Shown here: piece after piece, positions 32-33,227 of the stretch | How positions within the stretch are numbered: the stretch's first letter is position 1 | How the letters are laid out: every line of letters begins with the position of its first letter | DNA from: Octopus vulgaris | Lineage: Eukaryota | Length of the DNA: 64,000 bases | Reading direction: 5' to 3' | Assembly (NCBI GenBank): GCA_951406725.2 | Contig: OX597814.1 | Location: 2,170,001-2,234,000 of the forward strand | Notes under the pieces: model-generated | Database searches by the model: none | What the model was told of the DNA's origin: nothing | What the model saw: the letters and a program-made list of their open reading frames with translations, nothing else | Position numbers and translations under genes: made by a program

Positions 32-63
<32 letters not shown>

Positions 64-93
64 TTATATATATATATATTTATATATAAAAAG

Positions 94-293
94 AATTGCA
101 GCGTGGAAGGTGTTTATAAGCCATTTAAGAAACACAAAAACCGATAGATTCACTTCCACATTCAAATTTAATTTGTCAAAATATTTTCGTCGCTTTGAGA
201 CCGCGACCTGTTCACTGACAAAACTTCGTGCTGCATCTAACGGTTTTTGTGCGCTTCTTAAATGGCTTATAAACACCTTCCACGTTGCAATTG
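94..293. repeat. Fold-back element with ~55-bp inverted arms enclosing a hammerhead-like motif
   Basis: aattgcagcgtggaaggtgtttataagccatttaagaa...(from 94) is the near reverse complement of ...ttcttaaatggcttataaacaccttccacgttgcaatt (to ~292); starts right after (TA)n. Confidence 0.85.
172..222 (-). ncRNA. Minimal type-I hammerhead-like motif, G3:C8 core variant
   Basis: Minus strand UUUGUCA-GUGAACA-g-GUCGC(ggucucaaa)GCGAC-GAA-AAUAUU-U-UGACAAA: 7-bp stem I, 5-bp stem II, palindromic stem III. Confidence 0.6.
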
Positions 294-496
294 TTTTCGT
301 TCCAGCACACGACCTCAGATCAGGTCACTTGCTATGCAAGTACCTCTCCGTAATATATATACACAACCCGTGTCCGATATATTACGAGCAGGGGGGCAAA
401 CGTTATTAGATTTAGCGGTGATTATACAAGTATACCTGTCTGGTTTCAGAGTATTTCTCTTCGCCAGTACAGAACACCTGTCAGCTAGAAATGGCA

Positions 497-733
497 ATCG
501 TTCATCCTAGCTCGCAATATATAGATAATTAAGTGACAATCAGCCGCTGATTAAAAAAAATGGCTGTAATGTATTTCCGTTCGTAACACCCATCTTGAAA
601 TGGCGAAAAACATTAGTTTTCAGTATTGTTACTACTTACATCTCTTATAGAGATTTTAAAACCTGTTGTTTTGTGGCAAAATCAGCGGCTGAAGGTCGCT
701 TACTTTTCTATATTTTGCAAGCTAGGACGAACG
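497..733. repeat. Imperfect inverted repeat / MITE-like element
   Basis: tcgttcatcctagctcgcaa vs ttgcaagctaggacgaacga; tcagccgctgatt vs aatcagcggctga. Confidence 0.6.
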
Positions 734-759
734 ACAATTGTAAGTAATTTTGGCATCAA

Positions 760-1110
760 TTCCGCACGGATTTTACGAAAGCGAAGCATGTCTTGGATGA
801 TTTTGCATGTAGGAACTTGACTAATCTGCAGAGGACATGCCGTCTCATCGATGGCCACACGTCAGTTCTCTAGAACCATCTCTTGAGCTGCTTGAATCTT
901 GACATCAGTGGTGGAGGTTGATGGTTGCCCTGCACCCTCTTCGTGCTTCACGCTTGTCCGGCCATTTTTAAACTTCTCGATCCACTCATACACACTTTTA
1001 CCCAGTTGAGCGCTGTCTCCGTATAGTGGTGGTGTAAACCTGCGATGATTTTCAGCCCCTGACACACCTTCAGACCAGAGAAATAAAATCATTGGTCTCT
1101 ATTCTTCTTT
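760..1110 (-). mobile_element. Decayed mariner transposase, N-terminal HTH region
   Basis: ORF 862-1092 LWSEGVSGAENHRR...VYEWIEKFKNGRTSVKHEEGAGQPSTS resembles the mariner DNA-binding domain (W...FK.G..S..D..RSGRPS); ends in a premature stop. Confidence 0.85.
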
Positions 1111-1683: not shown

Positions 1684-2078
1684 GGCGCAGGCGTAGCTGC
1701 ATGGCAAGAGGCTTGCTTCTCAATCACATGGTTCCGGGTTCAGTCCTACTACGTGGCGCCTTGTGCAGATGTTTTCTAATATAGGCTCGGGCCAACCAAA
1801 GCTTTGTGAGTGGATTTGGTAGAAGGAAACTGAAAGAAGCCCGTCGTATATATATATATGTTGCGTATGTGTTTGTGTTTGTCCCCCCCCCCCCACCATC
1901 GGTTGACAACCGATGCTGGTGTGTTTACGTCCCTGTAACTTAGCGGATCGGCAAAAGTGACCGATAGAATAAGTACTAGCCTTACAAAGAACAAGTCCCG
2001 GTGTCGGTTTCTTCGACTAACACCATTTAAGGTGGTGCTCAGCATGGCCGCAGTGAAGTGACTGAAACAAATAAAAGG
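1684..2078 (+). mobile_element. tRNA-derived SINE family A with internal (TA)/(TG) microsatellite
   Basis: ggcgcaggcgtagctg...ggttcagtcc...gaaactgaaagaagcccgtcg(ta)n...gcatggccgcagt...gactgaaacaa; more than 10 copies in window. Confidence 0.9.
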
Positions 2079-2288
2079 CGCAATGGCCTAGTGGTTAGGG
2101 CAGCGGACTTGCGGTCGGAGGATCGCGGTTTCGATTCCCAGACCGGGCGTTGTGTGTGTTTATTGAGCGAAAACACCTAAAAGTTCCACGAGGCTCCGGC
2201 AGAGGTGGTGATCCCTGCTGTACTATTTCACCACTCTAAAAGGCGGTGCTCCAGCATGGCCGCAGTCAAATGACTGAAACAAGTACAA

Positions 2289-2328
<40 letters not shown>

Positions 2329-2552
2329 CATTTTTTTTTTTTTTTTTTTTGTACTTGTTTCAGTCATTTGACTGCGGCCATGCTGGAGCACCGCCTTTTG
2401 AGTACAGCAGGGATCACCACTCCTGCCGGAGCCTCGTGGAGCTTTTAGGTGTTTTCGCTCAATAAACACACACAACGCCCGGTCTGGAATCGAAACCGCG
2501 ATCCTCCGACCACAAGTCCGCTGCCCTAACCACTAGGCCATTGCGCCTCCAC
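2077..2552. repeat. Palindrome of two chimeric SINEs (B head + A tail), tail-to-tail
   Basis: 2077-2286 vs reverse complement of 2351-2552, centred on A-run/(TA)n/T-run. Confidence 0.9.
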
Positions 2553-33192: not shown

Positions 33193-33227
33193 GTTTCTGA
33201 CGAAGAGCTCCGCTCGAAACGTTAAAT
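33193..33227 (+). ncRNA. Minimal hammerhead motif in short element ~33141-33331
   Basis: GUUU-CUGACGA-a-GAGC(ucc)GCUC-GAAAC-GUU-AAAU. Confidence 0.62.

What the first reader, a model, noticed from the sequence alone, without database searches (positions are those of the whole stretch)
172..222. G3:C8-swapped hammerhead core
The core reads GUGAACA instead of CUGANGA, while stem I (7 bp), stem II (5 bp), GAAA and palindromic stem III are all in register. Established: C3 and G8 form a tertiary Watson-Crick pair, and compensatory swaps retain some activity. A double compensatory change suggests selection for fold. The UUU triplet would be a poor substrate.
Basis: partly seen in the sequence, partly recalled or inferred. 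Interest (0 to 1): 0.72.

Follow-up and report, generated by a model that had tools for sequence, protein, structure and literature searches.

The report
Swapped-core hammerhead heading Penelope retrotransposon RNA
This is one of thousands of short end-pieces of a Penelope-type jumping gene, and it carries a hammerhead-shaped RNA, predicted but not shown to cut itself, in which two paired core letters have traded places and stayed that way through old and young generations of the element.

Summary
Confirmed, on the minus strand (222→172). The motif lies in the pseudo-LTR of a Penelope-like retrotransposon; long copies link it to RT and GIY-YIG remnants and the ORF start. G3:C8 is the family state: 2953 of 3281 exact matches. 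It also marks a younger subfamily (98 of 100 listed) and an older generation, 74% identical downstream. A related family keeps C3:G8, and other stem pairs change on both sides. So the fold was likely selected. The pair is not needed for spreading: a derived G3·G8 lineage has 140 copies, a cousin family is mostly U3·G8 or C3·A8, and 59 of 62 copies span the cut site. Copies pile up at a likely capped start 60 nt before the cut (extra G in 20 of 31). UUU is ordinary in this class. In papers I could read, G3:C8 appears only as a partly active lab mutant; key papers were unavailable. This scan already reported it on other DNA (60 notes). Cleavage untested.

The parts
172..222 (-). Minimal type I hammerhead motif with G3:C8 core, extra G after A9, palindromic helix III (AAUAUU), UUU triplet; predicted cut between 179 and 178
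   Evidence: Sequence and fold; family counts
223..238 (-). 16-nt leader; position 238 is the likely transcription start (+1) of the element RNA
   Evidence: 31 of 48 copies leave the element template exactly here and 20 of those 31 carry a G just 5'; a TA-rich run lies about 25-33 nt upstream in long copies. This copy has T, not G, there.
125..171 (-). Rest of the 5' UTR between hammerhead and ORF start
   Evidence: Colinear with copies L390, L401, L414 that run on into the ORF
91..124 (-). First 10 codons of the element ORF (ATG at 124); short 3' end of the insertion at about 91-94
   Evidence: L401 reading frame starts with the same residues and leads into the RT region
235..353 (+). Inverted, 5'-truncated second copy (no hammerhead), ATG at 262, ending at the long 'tail' end; joined to the first copy through 4 shared bases at 235-238
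   Evidence: Inverted repeat I7; common 3' end of the family; sequence
32..88 (.). (CA)n(TA)n microsatellite at the insertion site
   Evidence: TRF; TA repeats flank many copies

Best explanation
The motif is a hammerhead-shaped RNA with a G3:C8 core in the terminal repeat of a Penelope-like retrotransposon, and it is likely a slow, partner- or protein-assisted self-cleaving ribozyme kept by selection on the element's master lineage. Shown: its place between the 3' UTR of one element copy and the ORF start of the next; G3:C8 as the state of three generations; and that nearly all inserted copies span the cut site. Inferred: transcription starts 16 nt before stem I; two RNAs pair through the AAUAUU palindrome (or the element protein folds the RNA); cutting at +60 would remove the capped leader from the message or trim tandem precursors; reverse transcription starts inside the ORF and copies uncut RNA back to the cap, which gives the many 150-210 nt stubs and inverted pairs such as the one in this window. 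Cleavage is likely useful but not required, so unpaired 3-8 lineages can still spread.
For: Parent element: 14 of 30 loci picked by the endonuclease sequence (query locus included) carry the motif downstream on the same strand, with RT motifs, a CxxxCxxC linker and a GIY-YIG-like domain (Pfam GIY-YIG E 0.00098, below its curated cutoff). In 4 of 30 RT-picked loci the tail runs on into the ORF. Persistence: 2953 of 3281; younger subfamily 98 of 100 listed of 2034; older generation picked by flank only has G3 in 10 of 10 and C8 in 8 of 10 independent non-query copies that reach the core (my count from the alignment of 30 loci), with 95 of 128 downstream positions identical. Fold kept: against the cousin family 35 of 47 motif positions match versus 77 of 143 downstream, and pair 15.2-16.2 changes G-C to A-U; pair 10.4-11.4 is A-U in the C3:G8 family; 5 of 13 pairs change on both sides in 12 hand-picked copies. 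Biochemistry: the C3G/G8C double mutant partly restores cleavage in a Penelope hammerhead that needs the element protein (PMC11167929) and is the only rescuing double change in the CUGA region (PMC9901934). Start site: (p 4e-8 for the extra G).
Against: No cleavage was measured. 140 copies are G3·G8 on several haplotypes, including 3 of the 14 endonuclease-linked copies. The cousin family is mostly U3·G8 or C3·A8, with only 3 C3:G8 of 26. 59 of 62 independent copies span the cut site by 6 nt or more; 1 starts at it. The dimer fold scores -25.4 kcal/mol, no better than two monomers (-27.6) or an inactive swapped duplex (-30.6). In PMC11167929 cleavage was not needed for insertion in vitro. The sequences were chosen by me with a structure-aware pattern, so those counts lean towards the structure.
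Confidence: 0.6

Rival explanations
1. The fold is kept as a structural or protein-binding element of the element RNA and no longer cleaves at a useful rate; positions 3 and 8 drift, and G3:C8 is the state that the most successful lineage happened to carry.
For: Five 3/8 states have been amplified in this group: C:G, G:C, G·G, U·G, C·A. Inserted copies come from uncut RNA. Cleavage was dispensable for insertion in vitro (PMC11167929).
Against: G3:C8 stayed through about 26% flank divergence, and G5, A6, A9, G12, A13, A14, A15.1, U16.1 are kept in all families seen. Landing on the one rescuing swap and keeping it is unlikely under free drift. The canonical C3:G8 family also inserts mostly uncut RNA (about 20 of 30 by eye), so uncut templates do not mean a dead ribozyme.
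Confidence: 0.28
2. The swap is a selected slowing of the ribozyme: cutting would separate the internal reverse-transcription start from upstream sequence and from the cap, so slower cores (G:C, and the mismatched ones) spread better than fast C:G cores.
For: The two youngest and largest subfamilies seen are G3:C8; departures from the canonical core fall on 3 and 8 rather than on other core positions.
Against: The C3:G8 family shows a similar share of copies spanning its cut site; no rate data; copy number depends on many other things.
Confidence: 0.1
3. G3 is fixed for a reason outside catalysis, for example because it creates a pyrimidine-tract-plus-CAG splice acceptor or affects the short upstream reading frame, and C8 followed or drifted.
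For: The sequence 5' of G3 reads as a U-rich run ending in CAG, and a 22-codon upstream frame crosses the motif (sequence). A Penelope intron ends at helix I in D. virilis (PMC4209133).
Against: The older generation has G3 without the U-run. No spliced joint among the joints shown (33 rows hidden).
Confidence: 0.02

Closest known systems
Minimal type I hammerheads of metazoan Penelope-like elements (Cervera and de la Peña 2014, PMC4209133; main text parts 1-2 of 4 and supplement file 2 part 2 read)
   Same: In the pseudo-LTR; extra nucleotide between 9 and 10.1; G10.1-C11.1; palindromic helix III suited to dimers; U17 common; thousands of solo and inverted copies.
   Different: Core is G3:C8. 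The published table shows C3:G8, U3:A8 and one U3·G8, no G3:C8. The extra nucleotide is G, where their consensus has H (one listed exception).
PAc Poseidon element hammerhead of Anolis (Frangieh et al. 2024, PMC11167929; main text parts 1-2 of 4 read)
   Same: Hammerhead near the ORF start; copies end at two internal 'tail' positions in the ORF; AT-rich targets; uncut RNA is the template.
   Different: There G3:C8 is an engineered rescue mutant and the motif overlaps the start codon. Here it is the natural state and the cut lies 54 nt before the ATG.
Natural U3:A8 hammerheads (Perreault et al. 2011, PMC3088659; section 8 and passages read)
   Same: Natural double change of the tertiary 3-8 pair.
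   Different: U3:A8 keeps pyrimidine-purine order (two transitions); G3:C8 reverses it (two transversions).
Neptune/Nematis clades of EN+ Penelope-like elements (Craig et al. 2021, PMC8557442; passages read)
   Same: RT, then a Cys-rich linker, then C-terminal GIY-YIG; microsatellite targets; inverted 5'-truncated copy and tail.
   Different: Clade not tested by a tree here; no intact ORF was seen in one piece.

Membership tests
Hammerhead ribozyme (type I) | Three-way junction with stems I and II and A15.1-U16.1 | tested here: met
   helix III is only 2 bp as a monomer
Hammerhead ribozyme (type I) | Core U4 G5 A6 A9, G12 A13 A14 and H17 | tested here: met
   kept across families
Hammerhead ribozyme (type I) | Canonical C3 and G8 identity | tested here: not met
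   G3 and C8 in 2953 of 3281 matches; no Rfam hit
Hammerhead ribozyme (type I) | Watson-Crick complementarity between 3 and 8 | tested here: met
   G-C in this copy and 90% of matches; broken in 140 G3·G8 copies. The physical pair was not observed.
Hammerhead ribozyme (type I) | Site-specific self-cleavage 3' of N17 | not testable with these tools
   Needs an assay; genomic 5' ends show no peak at the site
Penelope-like element minimal hammerhead | Located in the pseudo-LTR of an RT + GIY-YIG element | tested here: met
Penelope-like element minimal hammerhead | Extra nucleotide between 9 and 10.1 and palindromic 15.2-16.2 region | tested here: met
   G at 208; AAUAUU here, AAUU in the older generation
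Penelope-like element minimal hammerhead | Active as a dimer | tested here: inconclusive
   Dimer fold possible but not favoured in energy; activity untested
EN+ Penelope-like element | RT followed by C-terminal GIY-YIG endonuclease | tested here: met
   Translated fragments. Pfam GIY-YIG E 0.00098, under cutoff; the two RT fragments gave no Pfam hit and were recognised by motifs from my knowledge
EN+ Penelope-like element | 5'-truncated, inverted or tandem copies with a tail | tested here: met
Neptune clade | Cys-rich linker between RT and endonuclease, and placement in an RT tree | tested here: inconclusive
   CxxxCxxC linker seen; also described for Nematis; no tree built

The most novel reading that the evidence does not exclude
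An active natural hammerhead with a reversed G3:C8 core sits at +17 to +67 of a capped retrotransposon mRNA and acts as a timed decapping switch. U17 spares it the G3-C17 trap, and the G3·G8, U3·G8 and C3·A8 lineages are catalytically dead passengers cut in trans by intact partners in mixed dimers. Motif searches tied to CUGANGA would then miss whole ribozyme families of thousands of copies.
Probability: 0.25. Interest if true: 0.68.

Novelty: new variant of a known kind. Interest (0 to 1): 0.45.

Why it matters
The 3-8 pair is a textbook feature of the hammerhead active site, and in the papers I could read the reversed G3:C8 form is known only as a lab rescue mutant. One genome holds a natural series of related elements with C:G, G:C, G·G, U·G and C·A at this pair, plus near-complete parent elements. 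That makes an open question testable: does hammerhead cleavage matter for Penelope transposition at all? It also shows that descriptor and Rfam searches miss a family with over 5000 exact-match copies in two subfamilies (3281 and 2034). It does not add a new ribozyme class or a new kind of mobile element.

Tried and rejected
Rfam at gathering threshold: no hit. A peak of 5' ends at the cut site as genomic proof of cleavage: not found (1 of 62 at the site, 2 just 3' of it; 18 of 80 copies dropped as passengers of one re-amplified insertion). A comparison with the canonical family gave no clear difference (judged by eye). G3·G8 as the ancestral intermediate: rejected, since the older generation is already G3:C8 and G3·G8 copies share the young family's loop II and helix III. 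The 5' pile-up as a splice acceptor: first favoured (branch-point-like and pyrimidine-rich sequence), then set aside because only a single G and no shared exon sequence precedes it; not excluded. RNA evidence: no RNA holder listed. Raw RNA reads of organism B cover both strands, about two thirds run on into unrelated sequence, and no place has many ends; this library type says nothing on cleavage. One search showed the family in organisms B, C, D and E but listed no letters. Shared 3.3 kb upstream of L163 and L165 held no element ORF. Not held: Lünse et al. 2017, Martick and Scott 2006 (60), Arkhipova et al. 2017 (74), Przybilski and Hammann 2007 (75), Hammann et al. 2012 (77); any of them, or supplements I could not see (file 1 of PMC4209133 was not searched), may report natural G3:C8. 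Literature searches.

Full report
Observation. The motif is real and lies on the minus strand from 222 to 172. It has a 7-bp stem I, the core G3 U4 G5 A6 A7 C8 A9, one extra G, a 5-bp stem II closed by G10.1-C11.1, GAA, the palindrome AAUAUU and U17. A relaxed descriptor finds this motif and one canonical hammerhead-like motif in the window; a stricter one finds none in 100 shuffled windows. Rfam finds nothing at gathering threshold.

What it belongs to. The window is from a 2.8-Gb genome; earlier notes call it octopus-like, which I did not test. The motif is part of a 263-nt insertion (about 91-353) beside a (CA)n(TA)n tract: one copy runs leftward from 238, and an inverted, shorter copy runs rightward from 235, joined through four shared bases. 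A 31-mer just 3' of the motif has 3907 exact matches. Longer copies extend 5' through a microsatellite-rich region into an endonuclease remnant. Of 30 loci picked with that remnant, 14 (query locus included) carry the motif downstream on the same strand, and their frames show RT motifs, a CxxxCxxC linker and a GIY-YIG-like domain. Pfam gives GIY-YIG at E 0.00098, under its cutoff, and nothing for two RT fragments; the RT call rests on motifs that I know. In 4 of 30 loci picked with an RT stretch, the family's common 3' end runs on into the ORF, whose first residues match window position 124 onward. So the motif sits in the pseudo-LTR of an endonuclease-bearing Penelope-like element: 3' of one ORF and 54 nt 5' of the next start codon. 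This is the layout described in PMC4209133 and PMC8557442 (passages).

State of positions 3 and 8. With a 25-mer fixed except at 3 and 8 there are 3281 exact matches: G3/C8 2953, G3 with another base 216, of which G3/G8 140, and non-G3 112. Among the 100 listed non-G3 copies I count 61 A3, 29 U3 and 10 C3, and no C3/G8. A younger subfamily with a different loop II has 2034 matches, 98 of the 100 listed G3/C8. An older generation has N7 = C, a different loop II and a shorter helix III (AAUU). By pattern it is G3/C8 in 9 of 11. Picked by downstream flank alone, 10 independent non-query copies among 30 loci reach the core: G3 in 10, C8 in 8 (my count); its majority matches the young family at 95 of 128 downstream positions. 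In RNA reads of organism B and contigs of organism E, positions 3 and 8 are not among the 40 best-supported differences shown (67 rows hidden), which fits G3/C8 being the majority there too.

Relatives. A third family keeps C3:G8 with a UUC triplet and an A-U pair at 10.4-11.4 where ours has G-C. A cousin family is colinear with ours over stems I and II, the extra G, U16.1, U17 and the tail. It matches at 35 of 47 motif positions against 77 of 143 downstream, and has G-C at 15.2-16.2 where ours has A-U (of 30 search hits, the query, one duplicate and two misaligned rows were dropped). Its 3/8 states among 26 copies are U·G 12, C·A 9, C:G 3, U:A 1, U·U 1; these shares far exceed decay at other C and G positions. 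On 12 hand-picked copies from all groups, 5 of 13 pairs change on both sides and slid controls score lower; the choice was structure-aware, so this only illustrates the point.

Reading. The fold and the catalytic positions have been kept while flanks diverged, and G3:C8 has been stable for a long stretch of the lineage. That supports selection. But 3 and 8 are the loosest core positions in this group. G3·G8 (140 copies against about 11 for the mirror change at position 3) is an amplified lineage on several haplotypes, 45 of the first 100 on one chromosome. It is derived, not the intermediate. Lab data agree on the chemistry: in a Penelope hammerhead, C3G and G8C each abolish cleavage, the double mutant partly restores it, cleavage needs the element protein, and insertion does not need cleavage (PMC11167929). 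In a full pairwise scan the G:C swap was the only rescue in the CUGA region (PMC9901934, passages).

The triplet. UUU is not peculiar. U17 is common in the alignment of PMC4209133 and the Crassostrea entry reads UUU; the cousin family has U17 in 25 of 26, so it predates the swap. A G3:C8 variant was reported as more active with G17 than with C17 (PMC3884650, passage, 'data not shown'). I infer that C17 would trap G3 and that U17 let the swap persist. This is untested.

What the copies say about the RNA. Of 80 distinct copies anchored just 3' of the cut, 18 are passengers of one insertion re-amplified inside another repeat. Of the other 62, 53 reach G3 or beyond, 59 span the cut by 6 nt or more, and 1 starts at it. 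Inserted copies therefore come from uncut RNA, as in the Anolis element; the canonical family looks similar (about 20 of 30 by eye). Of 48 copies with an intact start motif, 31 leave the template exactly at the base matching window 238, and 20 of those have a G just before it where the template has C (background 19%, p 4e-8; two of the 31 are near-duplicates; 21 of the 48 came from a BLAST ranking). No longer shared sequence precedes the G. A TA-rich run lies about 25-33 nt upstream, like the TATA plus initiator arrangement described for rotifer Penelope repeats (PMC3846280, passage). I read this as a capped start, with the G copied from the cap; that cap copying leaves an extra G is from my own knowledge. 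A splice acceptor is the rival reading. On this model the hammerhead occupies +17 to +67 and cutting would remove a 60-nt capped leader.

Mechanism, shown and inferred. Shown: structure potential, location, copy numbers, 3/8 states, uncut templates, the 5' pile-up with extra G. Inferred: capped start, internal start of reverse transcription at the two tail ends, dimer or protein-assisted folding, slow cleavage. The dimer is possible but not favoured by energy (-25.4 against -27.6 for two monomers). I put a weakly active, selected ribozyme at 0.6, a non-cleaving structural remnant at 0.28, selected slowing at 0.1.

Novelty. Hammerheads in Penelope repeats are known, and so is natural U3:A8 (PMC3088659 section 8; PMC4209133). 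Searches gave G3:C8 only as a lab mutant, but five relevant papers were not held, among them the survey of Penelope hammerhead variants by Lünse et al.. PMC6765202, PMC8495972, PMC6155905 and the 2026 preprint were seen as passages only. This scan has noted the same swap 60 times in at least 3 genomes; those notes are not independent support. Verdict: a new variant of a known kind, interest 0.45.

Noticed in passing
window 33193-33227 (+): A canonical C3:G8 minimal hammerhead-like motif with the extra nucleotide, 4-bp stem II and weak 4-bp stem I, near a (TA)n tract; probably from another Penelope-like family.
   Followed up: partly
L114 (G000:C1:76506500-76515500) and 18 of 80 sampled copies: One inverted-pair insertion of this element was captured inside another abundant repeat and re-amplified with it; it inflates copy counts. 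The carrier was not identified.
   Followed up: partly
G000:C16, about 0.6-10.6 Mb and 42-56 Mb: 45 of the first 100 G3·G8 copies and many RT/endonuclease-bearing copies cluster on this one chromosome, which suggests local hopping or local duplication.
   Followed up: no
L255-L283 (cousin family): Two subfamilies with single mismatches at the 3-8 pair (U·G and C·A) and an extra stretch of about 75 nt after the hammerhead that our family lacks.
   Followed up: partly
window 2076-2548: Near-perfect 470-nt palindrome (arms 97-99% complementary) centred on a TA/poly-A tract; arms resemble a tRNA-derived SINE by my recall; a related copy lies at 1444-1522.
   Followed up: no
window 498-734: 55-nt inverted repeat, 85% complementary, 127 nt apart; looks like a small non-autonomous DNA transposon.
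   Followed up: no
window 862-1098 (-): 78-codon open frame that resembles the N-terminal part of a mariner-type transposase by my recall; not scanned.
   Followed up: no
L394, L407-L410, L163, L165: A subfamily with a 4-nt deletion in the core after A7; in L394 and L407-L410 the tail is joined directly to a later part of the ORF, an internal deletion; several near-identical copies.
   Followed up: no
family position matching window 176: About a third of copies carry A-to-G in the 3' strand of stem I, turning U-A into U·G and keeping the pair (54 of 155).
   Followed up: partly
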